A program made the position numbers and the translations under genes. The notes under the pieces are model-generated. The model was not told the origin of the DNA. It searched no databases and worked only from the letters and a program-made list of their open reading frames with translations. Source: a virus (Duplodnaviria > Caudoviricetes). Taken from it: a DNA stretch of 39,021 bases. Position 1 is the first letter of the stretch. Each line of letters begins with the position of its first letter. Positions 2,400 to 39,021 of the stretch are shown here, one piece after another. Where the stretch lies: positions 1 to 39,021 of IMG/VR virus record IMGVR_UViG_3300049828_000410. One strand, given 5' to 3'.

Positions 2400-3584
2400 A
2401 TGATAATTGAGCACGTACCTATAAGCAGCTTAAAACAAGATGCGAACAACGCCCGCAAGCACTCGCCCAAGAACTTGAAAGCGATCAAGGGAAGCCTGCG
2501 CAAGTTCGGTCAGCAGAAACCGATCGTGGTGGATGGCGAGGGTGTGGTGATAGCGGGCAACGGTACGTTAGCCGCAGCGCAAGAGATCGGCTGGACAGAG
2601 ATCGACGTGGTGCGGACAGCGCTCGTTGGTGCCGATGCCGTGGCGTTCGCCCTTGCCGACAACCGCACGGCAGAGCTAGCCGAGTGGGACGATGCGATAC
2701 TGGGTGGCGCACTTCAAGCGCTGCGCGAGGGCGGCTTCGACATCGAGGCTATTGGCTTTGATATCAAGGAAGCCCTCGACGCTGGCAATTCAGGCAATGG
2801 CGATCCCGATGACGTGCCTGATGAGCCGGCGGAGGTGTGGGTCAAGGTCGGCGACCTGTTTGAGCTTGGTAGCCATAGGTTATTGTGCGGCGATTCGACC
2901 AATCGCGAGGACGTTGCCAGGCTAATGAATGGCGCGGAGGCGGATTTAGTCCATACTGACCCCCCTTACAATGTTGACTATTCGAATCAAGATCGGCCTA
3001 AGGCTGGTAAAATTGATCTAGGCCGCATAAAAAACGACAAAATGGAGGATGACATCTTCCTCCAGTTTTTGACGTCTTCCCTTTCATTAGCGTTCGCAAG
3101 CTGTAAAGACGATTCGAGCATCTATATTTGGTATGCATCGAAAGAAACTTTAAATTTTCATGTTGCTGCTGCTGCTGCTGGGTGGGCTATCAATCAGCAA
3201 ATCATTTGGAAAAAGCCGATGCTGTTAGGTCGTGGACGCTATCAGTGGGCGCACGAGCCGTGCGTTTTTGGCGTGAAGGGAAAGCCTTGGTTCACGGACG
3301 ACCGGACGAAGACAACAGTTTGGGATTTTGGCGGCTACGATAAAAGCAAGAATGTGCATCCAACGCAAAAACCAGTCGTTGTTCCAGAGGAAGCTATCAA
3401 CAATAGTTCCAAGATCGGCAGTATCGTCCTGGACCTATTCCTAGGCTCGGGCTCAACGCTCATCGCGTGCGAAAAGACGGGCCGCCGTTGCTACGGTATG
3501 GAGCTCGACCCCAAGTACTGCCAAGTCATCCTAGAGCGCTGGGCTAAGTTCTCGGGCAAGGAATGGAAGCAAATAGATGGCTAA
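2400..3584 (+). CDS. ParB-like N-terminal domain fused to an N6-adenine/N4-cytosine DNA methyltransferase
   Basis: ParB-N motifs NARKH, FGQQKPIVVD, IAGNG, LADNR; MTase motifs HRLLCGDS, TDPPY, HPTQKP, LDLFLGSGSTLIACE, MELDPKY. Confidence 0.93.
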   Translation: MIIEHVPISSLKQDANNARKHSPKNLKAIKGSLRKFGQQKPIVVDGEGVVIAGNGTLAAAQEIGWTEIDVVRTALVGADAVAFALADNRTAELAEWDDAILGGALQALREGGFDIEAIGFDIKEALDAGNSGNGDPDDVPDEPAEVWVKVGDLFELGSHRLLCGDSTNREDVARLMNGAEADLVHTDPPYNVDYSNQDRPKAGKIDLGRIKNDKMEDDIFLQFLTSSLSLAFASCKDDSSIYIWYASKETLNFHVAAAAAGWAINQQIIWKKPMLLGRGRYQWAHEPCVFGVKGKPWFTDDRTKTTVWDFGGYDKSKNVHPTQKPVVVPEEAINNSSKIGSIVLDLFLGSGSTLIACEKTGRRCYGMELDPKYCQVILERWAKFSGKEWKQIDG

Positions 3585-4587: not shown

Positions 4588-5538
4588 ATGATGAAGAAGT
4601 TGATGTTATTGTCGATGTTGGCAGCGCCAGTGATGGCAGCGCCTAAGCCATGCCCGCGTGTGGACCCAGCGGTGATGGACGAGAGCGGGAACCCGATGTG
4701 CCCAAGTGAAGTAGTCACTAACACGGCTTACTCGGTGTTCCGTTGTGGTGTCGATCAAGCTCGCTCCTGGGCTATCCCCACGCAGGCCGAGATCTCCAGC
4801 ACCGAGAACATGTTGAAAGCGTTTAAGAACCGAAACTACAAACGCATGCGCAAGATGGCGGATGAGGTGGGCCTGCAAGTCTGCCGTGTCAAGAAGGAGG
4901 ACGATCAGTACCTGCTCTTCTTTGCGAAGTACGGGGTGAAGGATTACAACGGCCCGTTCATGATGCTGCGCGACGCTGCGAAGGTATCGAAGGTGTGGCT
5001 CATCGCACCGCACCAACACAGCGACGGGTACTTCTCCGCAGCACCAAGAGGCTTTCAAGACACGCACGCGGTCGCATACTTCCAAGCGGGCCATGACAAG
5101 GGCGGCTTTGGTGCCCCAGACCGTAGCGCTGACTTCAGTCACTCAAACGTAGCGCTGGGCTACCATGCAGTTAAGGCATTCGGTCAGCTATACCCGAAAA
5201 GCGTGGTGTTACACATACATGGGATGAAGGCGCAAGGGCATGTATTGTACCGGCCACTCAAAGGCCCGCTCGCTAAGCCGTTTGAGAAGGCAGTAACGAA
5301 GGTAACAAAGCTCGACGACTTCAGGGGCTTTAATGCGTTCTATGAGATCGATCCACCGACCGTGAACACGGGGTGGTACGTGAAGACAGAACTCCCGGCT
5401 GTGACCTACCGGAACAACAACGCGGTAGTGGCGTCGCTCATTAAGGAATGGGAAGCACAGCCTTTTGCGTGGAAGGATTCGGTGTTGCCATCGCCTGAAC
5501 CAGAGCCTGCCGGCGGGGAGAACTCGGACCATGAATAA
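4588..5538 (+). CDS. Secreted putative Zn-dependent hydrolase (N-formylglutamate amidohydrolase / gamma-PGA hydrolase-like fold)
   Basis: Sec signal peptide MKKLMLLSMLAAPVMA; motifs LIAPHQHSD, ADFSH, VLHIHGM. Confidence 0.5.
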   Translation: MMKKLMLLSMLAAPVMAAPKPCPRVDPAVMDESGNPMCPSEVVTNTAYSVFRCGVDQARSWAIPTQAEISSTENMLKAFKNRNYKRMRKMADEVGLQVCRVKKEDDQYLLFFAKYGVKDYNGPFMMLRDAAKVSKVWLIAPHQHSDGYFSAAPRGFQDTHAVAYFQAGHDKGGFGAPDRSADFSHSNVALGYHAVKAFGQLYPKSVVLHIHGMKAQGHVLYRPLKGPLAKPFEKAVTKVTKLDDFRGFNAFYEIDPPTVNTGWYVKTELPAVTYRNNNAVVASLIKEWEAQPFAWKDSVLPSPEPEPAGGENSDHE

Positions 5539-31756: not shown

Positions 31757-33376
31757 ATGTCGGTAGACCACAAGGACGTGAATCGTAAACTTGCGTGGGC
31801 AAGCCTTCTTGTCCTGCTTAGCATCGTCATGTTCTGCCTCGACCGCCTAACCGGCTGTTCGAGAGACGAGCCGCAGCAGCGCCAAGCCGTGGGGTATGAG
31901 ATACCGACAGAGGCTCCAAAAGAGCCTCCCCCGCCCATCAAGGATACCAATCCTAACTTCTTGGCTTTGGACGAGATCGAAGACGTGATTCTTCGCGATT
32001 TAAGCCGTCCTGAGCTAAATCAGGCCGATCGCGAAAACTATCGTTATCTTGTGGTTTCCGACATCGTCAACGAAGGCGGTGAAACTGCTCAGCCAATTGA
32101 TGGCATGAATAAAACCATCAACACCTTGTCCACAGAGAGATCGCTAGAGAAAGGCGAAGTGATCGATCCTGATAAGTCGATCATGCGCATCGATCTTAGA
32201 GATTACTTCGGAACCAAGGGACGTGCGGTTTGGCAGCGTTTTGAAAAGGACGCCATCATCAAGGTGGTGTCCCAGACTGTCCGTGGCCGCACCTTGCAAT
32301 TCCTTGCGCAAGCGGTACAGCCCTGGGCTCACGCGCGGGTATTTGCTGAAACAACACTCACAAAAGAAACCTACTACGACATTGTTGGTATTCCGGCAAC
32401 TCTCGCTTTGTTTTATTCCAAGTTCGCAGGCGTCATCCCGCAAGATGAGTTCGACGCGCAGAACGAGGGGCTAACCCTTGTAGGCTCGCAAAACTCTTTG
32501 ATCTCTCAGAACAACAGAATGCTTTGGCGGCTTGATGGTGCTGAGGGTGGGGTATGGCAAACATTCGACGTAGACAACCGAGTTGTAGGCAACGCACAAA
32601 ACCTCTTTGAGAATCCGTTCCCGGTTGAAGTTAATCCGTTCGTCGCCCAACTTGCTGACGAAGGGAAGGCCGAGCTTTGCTGCCGTCGCGAGAAGCCAAA
32701 GCCGCCTCCCCCGCCTCCAAAGCCTGCACCACCTAAACCGCCGGTTCGCCAAGTCTTGACCAACAAGATCTTTCAGCACGCGGCATCGGAAGTCATTGCA
32801 TCGCTCCCAAACGGGATGCTTGCTTTTGGGCTCTTTAATGCTGCAGGCGGTCGCGAAAACTCGGCCCCACAGACGGTTGTGACCAACACCCGTGCGGTAG
32901 GCTTGGGACTCTCGTCTGAGCTCCAAAACGCAAGAGATTGCTCGGGGTGCCACACCGCAGGGTTCATCAAGTTCACGGATGAGATCGGAGCACACATTAT
33001 TGGGTCTGCAGTCTTCAACGATGTCGAGAAGAAGCTAGGCCGCGAGCTTTATCGGCCCCAGCGCGAAGTGGATAAGTTGTTCGAGGACGATAACGAGCAA
33101 TTTGCCGACGCCATGGAAAAGCTCGATATCGAGATCCGCGAGGACCCGATTAACGTAGGTCTTCTTGATAACGTGCGGTCTGGGATTTCCTTCAAAGAGG
33201 CTGCAAGCTTCTTCTTCCTCGAGGAAGGGGACTTCCTAGCAAGGCTTCGTGGAGTGCAGACAGCTCAAGCGGAAGTTGGTACCCTAATCCGGGGCGGATC
33301 GCTGAGCTTCCAGCAGTTTGTGAACTCGGCCCCGCAAATCATCAAAGACCTGAACTTGTTTCAGGACATTCGCTGA
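31757..33376 (+). CDS. Exported (lipo)protein with a c-type heme-binding motif
   Basis: N-terminal hydrophobic helix and lipobox-like LTGC; SEVIASLPNGMLAFGL; CSGCH at 32939-32953. Confidence 0.72.
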   Translation: MSVDHKDVNRKLAWASLLVLLSIVMFCLDRLTGCSRDEPQQRQAVGYEIPTEAPKEPPPPIKDTNPNFLALDEIEDVILRDLSRPELNQADRENYRYLVVSDIVNEGGETAQPIDGMNKTINTLSTERSLEKGEVIDPDKSIMRIDLRDYFGTKGRAVWQRFEKDAIIKVVSQTVRGRTLQFLAQAVQPWAHARVFAETTLTKETYYDIVGIPATLALFYSKFAGVIPQDEFDAQNEGLTLVGSQNSLISQNNRMLWRLDGAEGGVWQTFDVDNRVVGNAQNLFENPFPVEVNPFVAQLADEGKAELCCRREKPKPPPPPPKPAPPKPPVRQVLTNKIFQHAASEVIASLPNGMLAFGLFNAAGGRENSAPQTVVTNTRAVGLGLSSELQNARDCSGCHTAGFIKFTDEIGAHIIGSAVFNDVEKKLGRELYRPQREVDKLFEDDNEQFADAMEKLDIEIREDPINVGLLDNVRSGISFKEAASFFFLEEGDFLARLRGVQTAQAEVGTLIRGGSLSFQQFVNSAPQIIKDLNLFQDIR

Positions 33377-33380
33377 GGGT

Positions 33381-33752
33381 TTGAAGATGCGCATGAGAAC
33401 GTTTGCAGAAGACCATGGCGCGAACATGCTGATCGTCGTCGTCATCTTGGCGGTCCTGGTAGTTTTCCTTATGCCCGCGTGCGGTGTGGAGAAGGAAGCC
33501 GATCCTTACCCCGAACCTGCAAGGCCGCCAAAGCCAGGCCCAGCGGGTGATGCTGCCTGGGACGAGCTAAAACCGATTGTGGCAGCCAATTGTGGTGGGT
33601 GTCACAATGGGTCTACCCACCCTTTGAAATTCGATTCTGGGGCTGCTTTTAAGCGTTCCAAGGCGAAAGCCAGGATACTCAACGGAACCATGCCGCCTTC
33701 TGGCTCTTTGGCACCCGATGCGAAGGCCAAGATGCTAGCTTACCTTGGCTAA
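33381..33752 (+). CDS. Class I monoheme cytochrome c lipoprotein
   Basis: Hydrophobic signal plus MPAC-G lipobox-like site; LKPIVAANCGGCH (33591-33605); distal MPP axial Met; terminal helix AKMLAYL. The true start may be a downstream ATG. Confidence 0.85.
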   Translation: MKMRMRTFAEDHGANMLIVVVILAVLVVFLMPACGVEKEADPYPEPARPPKPGPAGDAAWDELKPIVAANCGGCHNGSTHPLKFDSGAAFKRSKAKARILNGTMPPSGSLAPDAKAKMLAYLG

Positions 33753-34052
33753 CTGCTTCTTCCAGAACTTCACGGGATCGATCGGTTCCCGTGGGTGTTT
33801 CGCCTTCTGAGGTTTCTTGGTAGCCGCGTTAAGTTTGGCGCGAGCTTCCAGAACCTTTTTGCATTTGGCGCACTTTTCTATTTTCAGCCAAGTGCCGGGC
33901 GGCCCATAGCGCCCGTTGCAGTTGGTGCAGATCTTAGAATAAGGGGCAAAGTGGTCCCCTGGCTCAAGCTCTATTATCGGACGACCGAAAACACTGCTGT
34001 GAGCTTCGGGGGTAACTTTGCAGACTTTGTTGTCGTTAACTTGCGGTTTCAT
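33735..34052 (-). CDS. Zinc-ribbon hypothetical protein
   Basis: CTNC-x14-CAKC; ATGA-coupled within the minus-strand operon. Confidence 0.6.
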   Translation of the reverse strand: MKPQVNDNKVCKVTPEAHSSVFGRPIIELEPGDHFAPYSKICTNCNGRYGPPGTWLKIEKCAKCKKVLEARAKLNAATKKPQKAKHPREPIDPVKFWKKQLAKVS

Positions 34053-34243
34053 TTCGGCTGATCGTTACAATCTTCCGGAATACGGAAAGCTTCCGGCCTA
34101 GAGTTATACTCGTCATCCCACTGCTGTTCGCACAACTTGCGCAGGCGTCCGGCCAAGAACCAGGCCGCCCAGCATCCCGCAAGAATAGAAACACAAATCG
34201 CGACAAGAAGCCACAAGTCTAGGCTAATGCTCGACATGTTCAT
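34049..34243 (-). CDS. Small membrane protein
   Basis: TM LWLLVAICVSILAGCWAAWFLA. Confidence 0.55.
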   Translation of the reverse strand: MNMSSISLDLWLLVAICVSILAGCWAAWFLAGRLRKLCEQQWDDEYNSRPEAFRIPEDCNDQPK

Positions 34244-34469
34244 CGCCGCTGTCGTTGGTGTCGAAATCAGAGGGTGGCGGATAGGCTTTAAATATGCCTT
34301 TTAACGCATCCTCGTATTCCTCTTTGCTTAAGACCTGAAGCTCGGCGCTTAAAGTAATTAAGAACTTTGCTAACATCGCAGACGGCATCTCGGTTTTTTT
34401 TTGAACGTGGAGGATACAGCTCCGTAAATCGCCGAGAATGCCGAGGGCCGTGGTAAACCCGTCACTCAT
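34224..34469 (-). CDS. Hypothetical protein
   Basis: ATGA-coupled to erf; AAGGA RBS. Confidence 0.6.
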   Translation of the reverse strand: MSDGFTTALGILGDLRSCILHVQKKTEMPSAMLAKFLITLSAELQVLSKEEYEDALKGIFKAYPPPSDFDTNDSGDEHVEH

Positions 34470-35176
34470 GAAACATCCTTTTTATCGAGAATAGCCATCA
34501 ACACATTGTCCAAATCATCGGACGACTGACCCTTCATATTAAAGGCTATCTCGGCCCAAAAGCTCTCTGGAATATTGCGCGTCTGTAGTTGTGTTCTCAG
34601 TATCGATACATGGTGTTGATCATCTGGGTTGAACCCTAGCGATGAACCGCTACTCTGAGGAGCTTCGCTAATCCCGCTAACTTTTCTAGGCGCGTCACTA
34701 GGTCTAAGGGAAGGCCCACGTGCGGTTTCTTGCGGATTCTGATTAGCCATCCCCTGATACCGGCTGGACTGGTTCGCTTTAGGATCATGTTGTGCTCCAT
34801 TGCCGTCGTCGTCTTCATCTGCCACGATCGCGAGCATGCTTATTATCGCATACCTACGCGCATACGTTATGCAGGACCCGATAGACTGCGGCGTGTCGTC
34901 TTTTGGTCTAAGTGTGAGTTCGCTCTCGATCCACTGCCCGGACTTGTGCGCAATCCTCGTGAGAAGATTCACGCGCCCCTCGGCAAAGCCTGGCGACTGC
35001 AAGATGCAGAGTCCATGCTTCGATAGAGGGAGCTTGCAAGCCTCGCGAATACCCGCCAAGTCAGCGTAGCGCGACTTGAAATGCGGATTAATCTTGTTGA
35101 AAGATACGGTGCCGATTTCACCCTGAGCAAGCGATAGAGCTTCGCTGATCTTGTCTACAGATTCGGATGTCTTCAT
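34466..35176 (-). CDS. erf: ERF-family ssDNA annealing protein
   Basis: NPHFKSRYADL, HKSGQWIES, PQSIGSCITYARRY, DEDDDGN. Confidence 0.93.
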   Translation of the reverse strand: MKTSESVDKISEALSLAQGEIGTVSFNKINPHFKSRYADLAGIREACKLPLSKHGLCILQSPGFAEGRVNLLTRIAHKSGQWIESELTLRPKDDTPQSIGSCITYARRYAIISMLAIVADEDDDGNGAQHDPKANQSSRYQGMANQNPQETARGPSLRPSDAPRKVSGISEAPQSSGSSLGFNPDDQHHVSILRTQLQTRNIPESFWAEIAFNMKGQSSDDLDNVLMAILDKKDVS

Positions 35177-35436
35177 TTTTTCCCATACGACATTACAGGT
35201 TTTACAGCTTCAATTTCGAGATCTGCCAAATCCCGTACTACACCAGCAGGCATGTCGTTTAGGTTTTCAATCAAATTATCTGCTAAAATGATCGATGCCC
35301 GTGTGACATCTGAGGACATTCGCATTCCGCCGCTAAGGAGCCCTTTGGCCATCTCCAGAGCGAAGTGTTCCCTTTTTGTGAGTGAGTTCGAATATCCCTC
35401 GGGATTCACCAGATAGTCTGTTGGCCTTGTCTGCAT
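35173..35436 (-). CDS. Hypothetical phage protein (LTKREHFA family)
   Basis: LTKREHFALEMAKGLLS...SIILADNLIENLN is a common small phage protein pattern. Confidence 0.7.
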   Translation of the reverse strand: MQTRPTDYLVNPEGYSNSLTKREHFALEMAKGLLSGGMRMSSDVTRASIILADNLIENLNDMPAGVVRDLADLEIEAVKPVMSYGKK

Positions 35437-35566
35437 TGTCTACCCACTCCTGTAATAGTTGTCTGACCACTTCGCTGATACCAATTGGCCACGCTAACGC
35501 CATAGCGCGCTTGTGCAGCTTAACTGGTAAAATCATACCTAGTCTTGTCTGCGCCGGTTTTCTCAT
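35333..35566 (-). CDS. Ribbon-helix-helix (CopG/Arc-like) transcriptional regulator
   Basis: TRLGMILPVKLHKRAMALA...ISEVVRQLLQEWV. Confidence 0.65.
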   Translation of the reverse strand: MRKPAQTRLGMILPVKLHKRAMALAWPIGISEVVRQLLQEWVDNADKANRLSGESRGIFELTHKKGTLRSGDGQRAP

Positions 35567-35593
35567 TGCCTATTCGACTCCGATTAGAAAGGA

Positions 35594-36079
35594 ATGCTAA
35601 TGCTTACTAATCTGGCCGAGATCAGTCAACAGCGAAATGCTTCATACGATCTCTTGTGCCCGTTCATCGTCGAGCCCCTAAGTGACGCACTGGTAACATT
35701 AGCCATGCGTGACGTTGTGGTGCAGGTTTTTGAGGGGTTTCGCTCACCCGAGCGGCAGCGTGTTCTGTATGAACAAGGACGTACCGCACCCGGCAAGATC
35801 GTTACAAACGCAAGGCCATGGCATTCATTTCATCAATACGGCTTAGCAGTCGATCTCGTTTTTAAAACAAAAGACAAGAAGTGGTCTTGGGACGGCGATT
35901 ATAAGACCGTGGCACAAGTCATGCAGGACAGGGGCTTTGAGTGGCTTGGTGAGGCCGATCAACCGCACTTTCAAATGCGCGGCAAATACACCGCAATGCA
36001 AGCCTATGAAATCACCCGCGCCTATGGTGTCCAGGCGCTCTGGAATGCTATATTCCAAAGCAAAGGAAAAATCGCATGA
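35594..36079 (+). CDS. Endolysin, M15 family L-Ala-D-Glu peptidase
   Basis: EGFRSPERQRVLYEQGRT, IVTNA, SFHQYGLAVD, DQPHFQ. Confidence 0.92.
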   Translation: MLMLTNLAEISQQRNASYDLLCPFIVEPLSDALVTLAMRDVVVQVFEGFRSPERQRVLYEQGRTAPGKIVTNARPWHSFHQYGLAVDLVFKTKDKKWSWDGDYKTVAQVMQDRGFEWLGEADQPHFQMRGKYTAMQAYEITRAYGVQALWNAIFQSKGKIA

Positions 36080-36186
36080 TCGCCGAATGTGAAGATTGCC
36101 AAACAATCTTTGAGCAACGAGCGTTGCATATTAAAGTGTGTGACACCTGCGCAATGGAGCGCGAAATTCGAGAGGAAGACCAATGA
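36076..36186 (+). CDS. 36-aa zinc-ribbon protein (not in ORF track)
   Basis: MIAECEDCQTIFEQRALHIKVCDTCAMEREIREEDQ; ATGA overlaps at both ends; AAGGA RBS. Confidence 0.72.
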   Translation: MIAECEDCQTIFEQRALHIKVCDTCAMEREIREEDQ

Positions 36187-36644
36187 AGCGTTTAGCAGTT
36201 TTAGTGGCTTTAGCAACTCCAGCGTTCGGTGCAGGCAAAGCCTCTTTCGAGGTCCCGGCCATCGGCGACTTGCTCTCCATCGAAGGGAAGGACTGTGTGG
36301 TCACGGGTGATCTCGCCAAGGGGGCCTTTGAGGTTTCCCTAGTGTCATGCACCACCGGCATCAAAATGCGCGATGGCCACATGTGCGAAGACATGGAATG
36401 TGCCAAGTTCCCCGTGGCAAAGGCGCAACTGACAGGACTTCCATCGGCTGACGGCAAGTTCAAGCTAGCCGGAACTCTGACCCTTCATGGCGTGGAAAAG
36501 CCCCTGGAAGGCGATGGAGAAATGAAAAAAGGGACACTAGAGGCAAGCTTCAAGGTGCGACTCGAGGACTTCGGCATCAAGCGCCGGACCCATCTTGGTG
36601 TGGGCGTGGGTGAAGTGGCCAGCGTCAAGGTGGAGTTCAAATAA
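36183..36644 (+). CDS. yceI: YceI-family periplasmic lipid/polyisoprenoid-binding protein
   Basis: Signal peptide MKRLAVLVALATPAFG; TGIKMRDGHM, KFP, GTLTLHGVEKP, FKVRLEDFGI. Confidence 0.88.
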   Translation: MKRLAVLVALATPAFGAGKASFEVPAIGDLLSIEGKDCVVTGDLAKGAFEVSLVSCTTGIKMRDGHMCEDMECAKFPVAKAQLTGLPSADGKFKLAGTLTLHGVEKPLEGDGEMKKGTLEASFKVRLEDFGIKRRTHLGVGVGEVASVKVEFK

Positions 36645-37549
36645 TGAAGCGCCTCCTGTTGGCAGTGTTGGCAGTGATGTCAACGGGGGGCCATGCCTTT
36701 CCCGATGCAATCCGGAAGGGCTACACCAACTGCGGAACCTGCCACTATTCCCCCTTGGGTGGTGGTCCGCAAACACCCTACGGCAAGGGCACCGCGCCCG
36801 AGATCTTCCCTACTTGGCGTGGGCTTGTGGTGGACCCGTCCGAACACCTTGTCTACGGCATGGATGCAAGACGGCTGGTCATGACAAAGCGCGAGCCATT
36901 CATCATGCAAGAAGAGGCTCACCTTGGCGTTACGGCAAAAGGGGCCACAATCGTCGGCACAGTCAATCCCGAAGGCCCACTAGGGCTATGGGCTTCCTAT
37001 AGGTATAAAGGCTTGGGCGTGCGGTTAGGGCGCTTTAAACCCGCCTATGCGATTCCCTACGATGACCACACGGTTCCCATTCTCGGGAACAAGAAAAACT
37101 ACGAGAACAACAATGTTGAGCTGGAACTTCGGAACAGGAGAGGTGAGATCGTCATCACCCGCATTCTTGGTAACTCCAGATTCTCCTACTCCCGACTATT
37201 GATCGTAGGGCGGGATGCGCTCGCCGGGACAGTCAACCTGTTTGCCGGCAAGCGTTGTAAGGGTGGAGGGACCATTGTGGGTACAGCGGCGGATAACGTT
37301 AGGCGGGCACTACATATTCAATGCTCGTACAACTCTGAGCTGTACGGCATGGGTGAGTGGTCTGATCAAGGTGATAGGTTTGGATTGCTTGGATACGAGA
37401 TATTGACGGGCCTACACGTGCGGTTCACATCGTTCGGCCCTGAATCTAATTATCGCATAGGCCTGAGATGGATTCCAATCCCTGGCCTGGAAGCTACCGG
37501 CGAGCTCGAGAAAGAGCGCGCGTTCCTTGTCTCACACCTTTGGTTCTAG
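36644..37549 (+). CDS. Outer-membrane beta-barrel protein with an N-terminal CxxCH heme-c motif
   Basis: Signal peptide ending GHA-F; GYTNCGTCHYSPLGGGPQTPYG (36731-36745); RLGRFKPAYAI; amphipathic strands; C-terminal FLVSHLWF beta-signal. Confidence 0.78.
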   Translation: MKRLLLAVLAVMSTGGHAFPDAIRKGYTNCGTCHYSPLGGGPQTPYGKGTAPEIFPTWRGLVVDPSEHLVYGMDARRLVMTKREPFIMQEEAHLGVTAKGATIVGTVNPEGPLGLWASYRYKGLGVRLGRFKPAYAIPYDDHTVPILGNKKNYENNNVELELRNRRGEIVITRILGNSRFSYSRLLIVGRDALAGTVNLFAGKRCKGGGTIVGTAADNVRRALHIQCSYNSELYGMGEWSDQGDRFGLLGYEILTGLHVRFTSFGPESNYRIGLRWIPIPGLEATGELEKERAFLVSHLWF

Positions 37550-38107: not shown

Positions 38108-38992
38108 TTGCGTGGCCAAATTCATCTTGCGGACTTTGTTGATGTTTGGCACGGTGGTGGCGAACTCATCAGCCAGCTTGGAAAACTTGTGTCGCTTATC
38201 TCAGTGCATCCCGCGCCGTACCAAGTCGATCGTGCGCGGAGTGAAAAAGACTACGCCAGACATTTCGCCAAAGGCTGGTGGACATTCAATGTCAAAGCCT
38301 TTGATCTTCTGCAAACCATCATCACAAGTCGCGTCTGGAGTCCAATCGTCTTCGCCGGCGGTCATAGACTGGGAGCGAATTTTAAAGAGGCTAGATGGCT
38401 TGCGTTAGACTTTGATACGCCTGAATATGACCTCCAGCAATGCCTAAACGATTGGTGCGACACTATCCATGTCATTGGGACCACCAAGAACCACCAGAAA
38501 CAGAAAGGCGACCATCCTCCTTGTGACCGCTTTCGTCTTGTGGTGCCTTTTGCTCGGGTCATCGATTGCCCTCGCACCTACGAGCACAACTTTCGTGTCG
38601 TGGGTGAGCGATACGGAGCTGACACCCAGGTAAAGGATCGCGCTAGGTTATTCTTCCCCTGCCAAGAGATCGTCTCGGTATGCAAGGAAGGCGAGCTGCA
38701 GCCGATCTTGGAAGCGCCGCCTGAGCCGGTGGTAAAGGCCGAGGCGTGCGGTAATTTTCTATCAGGCTACGCCAAATGGTTTATGAGAACCAAAATACCA
38801 GTTGGCGAAAGAACGACGAACGTTTGGCGATTTGCCAAAGACCTTATCAAGTACGGCGAAACCCCGGAGCGCATCTTAGGTGCGGTTTTAGGGTCGGCCA
38901 CCTACCGCGACGAACCGCCCGAACCGCACGCCATGGGCAAAATTAAGCAGGCGATACAATCCGCGCAGAACAGCGCACTAAGGGGACCGTAG
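38108..38992 (+). CDS. AEP-superfamily primase/prim-pol with a C-terminal PriCT-like domain (start may be GTG 38189)
   Basis: WSP, LALDFD, TTKNH, RFRLVVPF, DRARLFF, GERTT. Confidence 0.82.
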   Translation: MRGQIHLADFVDVWHGGGELISQLGKLVSLISVHPAPYQVDRARSEKDYARHFAKGWWTFNVKAFDLLQTIITSRVWSPIVFAGGHRLGANFKEARWLALDFDTPEYDLQQCLNDWCDTIHVIGTTKNHQKQKGDHPPCDRFRLVVPFARVIDCPRTYEHNFRVVGERYGADTQVKDRARLFFPCQEIVSVCKEGELQPILEAPPEPVVKAEACGNFLSGYAKWFMRTKIPVGERTTNVWRFAKDLIKYGETPERILGAVLGSATYRDEPPEPHAMGKIKQAIQSAQNSALRGP

Positions 38993-39021
38993 TGACCGAA
39001 GCAGAAAAGCCGAAGCTCCCG
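38992..39021 (+). CDS. 5' end of the helicase gene (MTEAEKPKLP), continuing at position 1
   Basis: TAGTG overlap with the primase stop, AGGGG RBS, 10 codons in frame with 1..1311. Confidence 0.85.
   Translation, partial: MTEAEKPKLP

What the first reader, a model, noticed from the sequence alone, without database searches (positions are those of the whole stretch)
31757..37549. Phage-encoded envelope redox module: three heme-c proteins plus YceI
Seen: four exported proteins in a 39-kb phage, namely a 539-aa lipoprotein with CSGCH, a small class I cytochrome c with CGGCH and MPP, a YceI protein, and a beta-barrel with N-terminal CGTCH. Together they take about 3.4 kb, all ORFs are intact and packed like the other phage genes, and no Ccm/Ccs maturation genes are present. 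Known: CxxCH in an exported protein is the heme-c attachment site, YceI binds polyisoprenoids related to quinone side chains, and c-type cytochromes are not standard phage genes. Inference: the phage may install an electron-transfer or redox-sensing chain across the host envelope (lipid carrier, periplasmic cytochromes, outer-membrane barrel), matured by the host, to rewire respiration or to block superinfection. It implies a cytochrome-rich diderm host, perhaps Bdellovibrionota or Myxococcota.
Basis: partly seen in the sequence, partly recalled or inferred. Interest (0 to 1): 0.92.

Follow-up and report, generated by a model that had tools for sequence, protein, structure and literature searches.

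The report
Phage haem-protein cassette for host envelope
A 39-kb phage carries four genes for exported proteins, three with haem-c attachment motifs; the same four genes recur together in four other, very different phages, and they likely form a host-matured redox unit in the infected cell's envelope that would remove peroxide or nitric oxide.

Summary
All four recur in four other complete phage genomes. One is a relative (capsid 58% identical) that carries them contiguous and in the same order. The large-lipoprotein family occurs on 20 viral contigs, 18 with a small cytochrome gene directly downstream; its CxxCH is kept in 232 of 233 homologs.

The large lipoprotein is an unnamed family. Its core is predicted to resemble cytochrome c'-beta/P460 (Z about 6, a lead only), has invariant Arg/Glu/Asp and no conserved sixth haem ligand. 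The barrel is a distant relative of Cyc2 but fails the Cyc2 motif. Bacteria carry cytochrome c-YceI-barrel operons and, separately, fused dihaem versions of the large protein. I found the four-gene set only on phages. The likely host is Oligoflexia (Bdellovibrionota).

Best guess: a host-matured unit that removes peroxide or NO from the envelope (0.4). An electron conduit across the outer membrane is the main rival. Nothing is shown experimentally. This scan noted the cassette earlier on a 92-kb phage (e1-6070669); my paper searches found no description.

The parts
31757..33376 (+). Large monohaem-c lipoprotein of an unnamed family (539 aa). Core 200-410 is predicted to be c'-beta/P460-like; CSGCH at 395-399; Pro-rich insert at about 292-340
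33387..33752 (+). Small class I cytochrome c lipoprotein (CGGCH and MP; His/Met ligation inferred). ATG start chosen for a GAGGG upstream; the ORF finder gives 33381
   Evidence: (PF13442 25.8 bits, cut-off 27)
33735..36079 (.). Interruption between the two pairs: six minus-strand ORFs (including an ERF ssDNA-annealing protein, 34466-35176) and a plus-strand M15 endolysin (35594-36079); not part of the cassette
   Evidence: relative L236 has the four genes contiguous
36183..36644 (+). Exported YceI-family (lipocalin-like) protein
   Evidence: (PF04264 E 5e-15)
36644..37549 (+). Predicted outer-membrane beta-barrel with an N-terminal monohaem-c motif (CGTCH); OprO/P-like barrel, distant relative of Cyc2; shortened (301 aa against about 340-400 in most bacterial members)

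Best explanation
The phage carries an accessory four-gene cassette of exported proteins that the host's own machinery would load with haem c, and that likely works as a small redox unit in the cell envelope, removing peroxide (H2O2 or lipid hydroperoxide) or nitric oxide during infection. SHOWN: four intact genes with export signals; three conserved CxxCH motifs; recurrence of the set on unrelated phages; no maturation genes on the phage. INFERRED from established pathways: Sec export, haem attachment by host Ccm, lipidation of the two lipoproteins, insertion of the barrel in the outer membrane. PREDICTED: the large lipoprotein holds its haem on a five-stranded sheet like cytochromes c'-beta/P460, with an open sixth site and invariant Arg254, Asp271 and Glu345, so it is the catalytic or ligand-binding centre. 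INFERRED: the small His/Met cytochrome, fused to the large domain in bacteria and in some phages, is its electron donor; YceI carries an isoprenoid quinone or oxidised lipid, and the haem-plugged porin takes up reductant at the outer membrane, so the second pair feeds or complements the first. HYPOTHESIS: the benefit is an intact envelope and energy supply until lysis, or a fitter carrier cell.
For: Recurrence: all four genes on L111 (92 kb), L235 (42 kb), L236 (38 kb) and L237 (51 kb), all complete with terminal repeats. The large protein has a separate cytochrome gene directly downstream on 18 of 20 viral contigs; one more has a fused form. Fusion of the two in bacteria. CxxCH in 232 of 233 homologs; R254 234/234, E345 232/233, D/E271 234/234, Y206 233/234; no conserved Met or second His. 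Domain model pLDDT 90. The top three VIA-align hits of 48,161 chains are c'-beta/P460 (Z 6.2, 5.7, 5.6; rmsd 3.7-4.5 over 103-114 residues, covering nearly the whole target chain), with two more family members in the top ten; all 6 chains with Z>=5 in the second look are c'-beta. In that superfamily a distal Arg goes with peroxidase-like activity and a distal carboxylate with catalysis (PMC11928373, passages). YceI paired with a cytochrome limits envelope lipid peroxidation in the LcoA-BcnA system (PMC9113575, abstract). The window's protein sits in a 99%-supported clade with six other viral loci and no chromosomal rows, which points to long retention by phages. Three of 4 Oligoflexia-group genomes tested have CcmE and 4 of 4 have CcmF/CcsA.
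Against: The fold match is weak: Z under 8 can be a common arrangement, and Foldseek gave nothing at E<=0.001. PNP-oxidase-like barrels score Z 4.5-4.7 just below. I could not check where R254 and E345 sit relative to the haem. The pairs are separable: L001 (90% complete), L110 and the two large phages searched (L105, L087; incomplete) have no barrel, and L238 (26% complete) has YceI and barrel but no large protein. In bacteria the large domain and the barrel co-occur in 18 of 131 genomes against about 16 expected by chance, never on neighbouring DNA. Many likely hosts already encode the barrel family (54 of 131 genomes). Close capsid relatives L290/L291 and the Silvanigrella phage lack the cassette, so it is dispensable. 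No substrate is indicated by any neighbour gene.
Confidence: 0.4

Rival explanations
1. Electron conduit for energy or iron: the haem-plugged porin oxidises an outside donor such as Fe2+ as Cyc2 does, and the small cytochrome, YceI-bound quinone and large protein pass the electrons to the host respiratory chain (or mobilise iron) to fuel phage production.
For: Barrel family versus 17 Cyc2-motif proteins: HHalign probability 90%, E 1.5e-6 over the 43 N-terminal columns. OprO/P-like barrel (TM 0.67; Porin_O_P in 9 of 54 family members), the barrel type reported for Cyc2 (PMC8406198, passages). The bacterial operon has YceI beside the barrel in 67 of 78 cases and a CxxCH protein in 56.
Against: The Cyc2 motif and length rules are not met. 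The barrel itself did not align to Cyc2. Likely hosts are heterotrophic Oligoflexia, not known iron oxidisers (recalled). The large protein lacks a conserved sixth ligand, unlike a simple carrier. The lipoprotein pair is found on 20 viral contigs but the barrel beside it on only 4 of them.
Confidence: 0.25
2. Redox or gas sensing: the open haem binds NO, O2 or a metabolite and reports the state of the envelope to time lysis or dormancy.
For: c'-beta proteins are ligand binders (PMC11928373). Bacterial relatives are fused to WD40 or DUF4384 domains, and two carry source names for Ser/Thr kinases.
Against: The phage proteins have no output domain and no membrane span beyond the signal. No sensor kinase or receiver was found among the window proteins scanned. 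A dedicated electron-carrier partner fits turnover better than binding.
Confidence: 0.12
3. Superinfection exclusion or surface remodelling: the lipoproteins and barrel block receptors or DNA entry, with haem as a structural or accessory cofactor.
For: Patchy, moron-like presence among capsid relatives. Lipoproteins and outer-membrane barrels are common exclusion factors (recalled: Cor, Llp, Lom, Bor). Related phages occur as prophages in Oligoflexia-group genomes.
Against: Invariant polar residues and haem motif shared with chromosomal homologs across several phyla. A four-gene, three-haem set is costly for exclusion. No integrase was found in this phage.
Confidence: 0.1
4. Oxidative aid to lysis: the haem enzyme damages the outer membrane or wall at the end of infection instead of protecting it.
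For: An endolysin lies directly beside the cassette in 3 of 5 four-gene phages (window M15 peptidase; L111 and L237 Amidase_2). In the window, L001, L110, L237 and L238 the genes are co-oriented with virion genes. No spanin was recognised in the window.
Against: In L236 the lysozyme is 4.6 kb away and the cassette is opposite to the capsid genes; no endolysin was recognised next to the L235 cassette. Lysis regions are common landing sites for accessory genes (recalled). Chromosomal homologs are evidently not lytic.
Confidence: 0.08
5. Artefact or recent passenger DNA: host genes mis-assembled into, or recently captured by, the phage without function.
For: One 1.6-kb stretch lacked a long covering contig in the part of run X1 that was read.
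Against: Bridging contigs at even depth; phage-like codon use; close homologs at 55-91% identity in other assemblies; the same set in four other complete phages; phage-specific clades in both trees.
Confidence: 0.02

Closest known systems
Cyc2 fused cytochrome-porin (Keffer et al. 2021, PMC8406198)
   Same: Signal peptide, one N-terminal CxxCH, OprO/P-like barrel; A, P, R and K of the upstream motif are in the same register; profile match over the haem region.
   Different: AXPXFAR[Q/K][T/Y] and PXL motifs not met; 301 aa, under the 365-aa rule; has a GGG insert after the haem motif; partnered with YceI; phage-encoded; iron oxidation untested.
Cytochrome P460 / c'-beta superfamily (review PMC11928373)
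   Same: Predicted five-stranded sheet followed by a C-terminal CxxCH, no conserved sixth ligand, conserved polar residues on the strands.
   Different: Core embedded in a 480-650-aa lipoprotein with extra N- and C-terminal helical parts; 9-14% identity; no Pfam or profile match; Lys cross-link untested (the Lys two residues before R254 that many homologs have is Asn here); obligate class I cytochrome partner.
LcoA-BcnA (YceJ-YceI) lipid-peroxyl detoxification pair (PMC9113575)
   Same: An exported YceI lipocalin genetically tied to a haem protein in the envelope.
   Different: The partner there is an inner-membrane cytochrome b561; here the partners are c-type lipoproteins and an outer-membrane haem porin.
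Bacterial dihaem peroxidases (CcP/MauG type; recalled)
   Same: Logic of one His/Met electron-transfer haem feeding one open catalytic haem.
   Different: No sequence or fold match found; the catalytic half is a beta-sheet domain; the two haems are on separate genes in this phage.
Phage auxiliary electron-transport genes (cyanophage psbA, petE, petF, ptoX; recalled)
   Same: Phage-borne redox proteins that act in host membranes and depend on host cofactor supply.
   Different: These are exported haem-c proteins and an outer-membrane porin in a heterotroph's phage; no PHROG family matches any of the four and no match to three of them tested in 50,697 GenBank phage records.
Unnamed chromosomal PSCyt1-fused dihaem proteins (e.g. 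Oligoflexus tunisiensis WP_141735170) and the cytochrome c-YceI-barrel operon of Bdellovibrionota
   Same: Direct homologs of all four parts.
   Different: In bacteria the large domain is usually fused behind its cytochrome and lies apart from the barrel operon; the four-gene set was found only on phages.

Membership tests
Cyc2 | Signal peptide and single N-terminal CXXCH | tested here: met
   CGTCH at 30-34 after a hydrophobic N-terminus; SignalP not run
Cyc2 | AXPXFAR[Q/K][T/Y] upstream motif | tested here: not met
   Window reads AFPDAIRKG: A, P, R, K match; F, A and T/Y do not (against PMC8406198 passage)
Cyc2 | PXL motif downstream of CXXCH | tested here: not met
   Window reads YSPLGGGPQT after the His
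Cyc2 | Length of at least 365 aa (FeGenie rule) | tested here: not met
   301 aa
Cyc2 | 16-stranded OprO/P-like porin | tested here: inconclusive
   Atlas model TM 0.67 to a Porin_O_P cluster; Porin_O_P weak in 9 of 54 members, not in the window's protein; Porin O chains E 0.17-0.19; strands not counted
Cyc2 | Fe(II) oxidation | not testable with these tools
   needs purified protein
Cytochrome P460/c'-beta | Five-stranded antiparallel sheet with CXXCH near the C-terminal end of the fold | tested here: inconclusive
   Model has strands at about 240-244, 254-261, 264-271, 343-349, 355-361, then the CXXCH helix; best Z 6.2, rmsd 3.7, 103 aligned; Z under 8
Cytochrome P460/c'-beta | Pfam PF16694 match | tested here: inconclusive
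   No match, but the control genomes did not ring either
Cytochrome P460/c'-beta | Open distal site (His-only axial ligation) | tested here: inconclusive
   No conserved Met or second His in 234 homologs (best His 97/233); indirect only
Cytochrome P460 proper | Haem-lysine cross-link | not testable with these tools
   needs spectra or mass spectrometry
Class I cytochrome c (small lipoprotein) | N-terminal CXXCH plus C-terminal Met ligand | tested here: met
   C71, C74, H75, M104, P105 invariant in 19 of 19 aligned phage and bacterial sequences
Class I cytochrome c (small lipoprotein) | Pfam cytochrome c family above cut-off | tested here: inconclusive
   PF13442 25.8 bits against 27; two large-phage partners pass at 27.1-27.3
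YceI | PF04264 above cut-off, exported | tested here: met
   56.5 bits against 23.7; four phage homologs 61-75 bits
YceI | Polyisoprenoid or lipid ligand | not testable with these tools
   ligand recalled from the literature, not from a call
LcoA-BcnA | Adjacent cytochrome b561 gene | tested here: not met
   YceI's neighbours are an endolysin and the barrel; no b561 among the 29 window proteins scanned
Phage auxiliary (metabolic) gene | Host-type gene flanked by phage genes in a bona fide phage genome | tested here: met
Phage auxiliary (metabolic) gene | Expressed and active during infection | not testable with these tools
   needs infection transcriptomics or proteomics

The most novel reading that the evidence does not exclude
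Phages of Oligoflexia have assembled, from two unlinked host loci, their own electron-transfer chain across the outer membrane: a Cyc2-like haem porin draws electrons from an outside donor and passes them through YceI-bound quinone and a small cytochrome to a new class of P460-fold haem enzyme. It would be a virus-encoded cytochrome-porin conduit and a new haem enzyme family of over 3,000 sequence clusters.
Probability: 0.2. Interest if true: 0.93.

Novelty: categorically new. Interest (0 to 1): 0.82.

Why it matters
Exported c-type cytochromes and haem porins are not in the phage gene families searched, yet this set recurs on small podophages, 40-95-kb phages and (the lipoprotein pair) 50-340-kb phages. 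If active, phages run redox chemistry in the host envelope, which would add a class of auxiliary genes. It also gives a first structural handle (c'-beta/P460-like core, three invariant polar residues) on a large unannotated bacterial haem-protein family, and short, expressible versions of both that family and the Cyc2-like porin for biochemistry.

Tried and rejected
Pfam, PHROGs and NCBIfam gave nothing for the large protein or the barrel. tblastn of the large protein, barrel and YceI against 50,697 GenBank phage records: no match; the small cytochrome was not searched there. Foldseek against PDB and BFVD: no match at E<=0.001 for the whole model or the domain. Profile searches of PDB sequences: only weak class I cytochrome c hits for the fused N-terminal domain. 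Viral scans with the single protein or the narrow barrel alignment found nothing; 15 of 30 loci from the degenerate pattern were chance matches. Promoter and terminator scan: 8 and 10 sites against 6.9 and 10.0 in shuffles, so nothing is claimed. No exact terminal repeat of 11 bases or more. No RNA holder listed among 4 runs; small-share runs X2-X4 are not used for habitat. The careful barrel tree did not finish; only the quick tree is quoted. The complex prediction of large protein, small cytochrome and haem was not available, so binding and haem-pocket geometry are open. A Cyc2 profile did not pick the window's barrel out from unrelated window proteins. Paper searches: phage-encoded + c-type cytochrome + CxxCH gave 2 unrelated papers; auxiliary metabolic gene + cytochrome c + phage + YceI gave 0; phage + cytochrome-porin + viral contigs gave 1, where Cyc2 is in host genomes only; phage + heme c + auxiliary metabolic + Bdellovibrionota gave 0. 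Supplementary AMG tables of virome papers were not searched and could list such genes; subscription journals are not covered. Rejected: one bacterial four-gene operon as the source; filing the barrel as Cyc2; filing the large protein as P460.


Full report
THE GENOME. The window is a whole virus record of 39,021 bases, rated 100% complete. It has primase/helicase, resolvase, ParB-methylase, terminase, SU10-like capsid and adaptor, P22-like portal and internal virion genes, so it is podovirus-like. The last 30 bases start with a GTG that overlaps the primase stop and read open in the same frame as the ORF running in from base 1, as expected of a circularly permuted genome. Its capsid has one match among 50,697 GenBank phage records: phage MWH-Nonnen-W8red 1 of Silvanigrella aquatica, 42.9% over the full length; terminase 34% and portal 38% agree. 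Capsid relatives occur in 4 of 131 genomes of the phylum-level group around an Oligoflexus genome, one as an integrated prophage among host genes. No integrase was recognised in the window.

THE OBSERVATION. The four ORFs, their motifs and the absence of CcmE and CcmF/CcsA are confirmed. Three CxxCH motifs are seen where 0.009 are expected, all in proteins with hydrophobic N-termini, and codon use matches the rest of the genome. The genes form two pairs: large lipoprotein and small cytochrome follow the tail-type genes on the same strand; YceI and barrel follow an endolysin 2.4 kb further on. Contigs of run X1, which may be the source sample and so is not independent, bridge three of the four cassette borders at even depth; 32352-33922 was not covered by a long piece in the 62% read.

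IT IS A MODULE. The large protein has 22 hits in the word-indexed search and 3,053 clusters at E<=0.001 in the exhaustive profile search. In the ESM Atlas its three nearest clusters have Uroviricota as commonest taxon (a lead only). Viral scans gave 20 distinct contigs with the family: 1, 15 of 30, 3 of 4 and 1 new of 2; two of them (L087, L093) are copies from one study. On 18 of the 20 a small cytochrome gene follows directly; L304 has the cytochrome fused; L091 has a CxxCH ORF downstream that my profile missed. All four genes stand on L111, L235, L236 and L237, all complete with terminal repeats. L236 is a relative of this phage (capsid 58%, terminase 48%) with the order lipoprotein-cytochrome-YceI-barrel unbroken, so the window's cassette is probably an interrupted form of it (inference). 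YceI directly precedes the barrel in the window and in 5 of 5 other phages that have the barrel. The cassette is accessory: L290/L291 (capsid 59%, rated complete, near-copies) and the Silvanigrella phage lack it. The pairs are separable: L001 and L110 have only the lipoprotein pair, and fragment L238 only YceI and barrel. Thirteen contigs of 19-340 kb carry a second, distant clade of the pair. DNA-pattern scans miss many members, so these counts are lower bounds.

WHERE THE PARTS COME FROM. The barrel's haem motif matched 121 loci in a partial scan of bacterial genomes (about 370 estimated), mostly Bdellovibrionota, also Acidobacteriota and Myxococcota. In the 80 loci with flanks, 78 barrel ORFs were recovered; 67 have YceI within 2.5 kb, 56 a CxxCH protein (two of these are a paralogous barrel) and 49 both, usually in the order cytochrome-YceI-barrel. 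None of the 80 holds the large domain. The large domain occurs in 39 of 131 Oligoflexia-group genomes, mostly as a cytochrome fused in front of the large domain. The barrel occurs in 54 of the 131. Comparing the two tables by hand, 18 genomes have both against about 16 expected, always on different contigs or at least 0.46 Mb apart. So the four-gene set is, in these data, a phage assembly. In the barrel tree (85 rows, quick IQ-TREE, SH-aLRT only) 8 of 9 phage-type rows group at 93 and join three Oligoflexales rows at 98; L235 falls apart on a long branch, and three of the nine rows were labelled phage by likeness alone. In the large-domain tree (91 of 234 rows, FastTree) the window's protein lies in a 99% clade with six other viral loci, 21 rows of unknown context and no chromosomal row.

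WHAT THE PROTEINS ARE. Large lipoprotein: the full model has pLDDT 79 with a disordered Pro-rich insert; the 200-420 domain folded on 145 sequences reaches pLDDT 90. Against 48,161 PDB representatives the top three matches are T. thermophilus c'-beta (Z 6.2, rmsd 3.7, 103 aligned), M. capsulatus P460 (5.7) and N. europaea c'-beta (5.6), with two more P460s at ranks 5 and 10; the full model gave the same family in its top four; the second look put six c'-beta chains at Z 5.6-6.0 and nothing else at 5 or more. These scores are below the level at which a match is safe, and PNP oxidase scores 4.5-4.7. What adds weight is that the five modelled strands precede a CxxCH at the place where that fold carries it, matching the five-stranded sheet described in PMC11928373 (section 5). 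Over 234 homologs R254, D/E271, E345 and Y206 are all but invariant, the CxxCH is kept in 232 of 233, and no Met or second His is conserved. The review ties a distal Arg to peroxidase-like activity and a distal carboxylate to hydroxylamine oxidation (passages). Whether R254 and E345 face the haem could not be checked. Small cytochrome: CxxCH and MP invariant in 19 of 19, a His/Met carrier by established knowledge. Barrel: OprO/P-like by predicted structure and weak family hits; its haem region matches 17 Cyc2-motif proteins fetched from Acidobacteriota (HHalign 90%, E 1.5e-6, 43 columns), but it fails the Cyc2 motifs and length rule of PMC8406198 (passages). It is built like Cyc2 but is not a member. 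YceI is a clear member of PF04264.

HOW IT MOST LIKELY WORKS. Host Sec, Ccm, lipoprotein and barrel-assembly systems would mature the four proteins; Oligoflexia-group genomes have the Ccm genes tested (CcmE 3 of 4, CcmF/CcsA 4 of 4). The core is the lipoprotein pair: a His/Met cytochrome feeding an open, polar haem site, the logic of dihaem peroxidases (recalled) on a different fold. YceI and the haem porin are an optional second pair taken from the host operon. A YceI-cytochrome pair protects envelope lipids from peroxidation in Burkholderia (PMC9113575, abstract; lead from note e1-1264085). I therefore commit to removal of peroxide or NO in the envelope of the infected cell, at 0.4. An electron conduit for energy or iron (0.25), gas or redox sensing (0.12), superinfection exclusion (0.10) and oxidative help for lysis (0.08; an endolysin is adjacent in 3 of 5 four-gene phages) stay open. 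That the cassette is real, conserved and dependent on host haem maturation I put near 0.9.

NOVELTY. No PHROG matches any of the four genes, three tested genes have no match in GenBank phages, and four paper searches found no description (supplements and subscription journals not covered). This report adds the c'-beta/P460-like core, the invariant residues, the split and separable pairs, the phage-only clade, the second clade on large phages and the absence of the four-gene set from the bacterial genomes searched. The parts have distant known relatives, but the system matches none that I could test, so I class it as categorically new with an unproven function; interest 0.82.

Noticed in passing
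window 4588-5538 (+): A fifth exported protein (316 aa, hydrophobic N-terminus) just before the terminase, with His/Asp-rich motifs suggestive of a metal hydrolase; no Pfam, PHROG or NCBIfam hit.
   Followed up: no
window 38992-39021 and 1-1311: The end of the window opens an ORF in frame with the one at base 1, placing primase and helicase side by side on a circular map.
   Followed up: partly
L084-L088, L091, L093, L097, L102, L104-L106, L108: Thirteen contigs of 19-340 kb carry a distant clade of the large protein, 12 followed by a class I cytochrome c with a long Pro/Val-rich N-terminal part and no obvious lipobox; host not determined.
   Followed up: partly
L001 9869-11667: The lipoprotein-cytochrome pair sits inside the virion gene block of a 38-kb phage, between tail-type genes and the adaptor-like gene.
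   Followed up: partly
L111 9415-11301 and L304 8876-11034: Phage versions with the cytochrome fused in front of the large domain (L111's has a CxxxCH spacing); L111 keeps a separate small cytochrome as well, and L304 is followed by a 130-aa lipoprotein without CxxCH.
   Followed up: no
L111 7149-7712 and 13180-14244: Further lipoproteins flank the cassette: a CAP-domain protein and a 354-aa protein without a Pfam hit.
   Followed up: no
G134:C6 about 134000-168500 (L298-L299): Integrated prophage related to this phage (capsid 43%, portal 39%) with an integrase-like ORF and suf-like host genes nearby; no cassette match in that genome.
   Followed up: partly
L244 322-2889: Chromosomal member with three extra CxxCH motifs in front of the large domain (855 aa).
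   Followed up: no
window 2400-3584 (+): ParB-N6/N4 methyltransferase fusion.
   Followed up: no
window 32630-32780 (+): Lineage-specific Pro/Lys-rich insert with a CCRR motif in the large lipoprotein, absent from most homologs and disordered in the model.
   Followed up: partly
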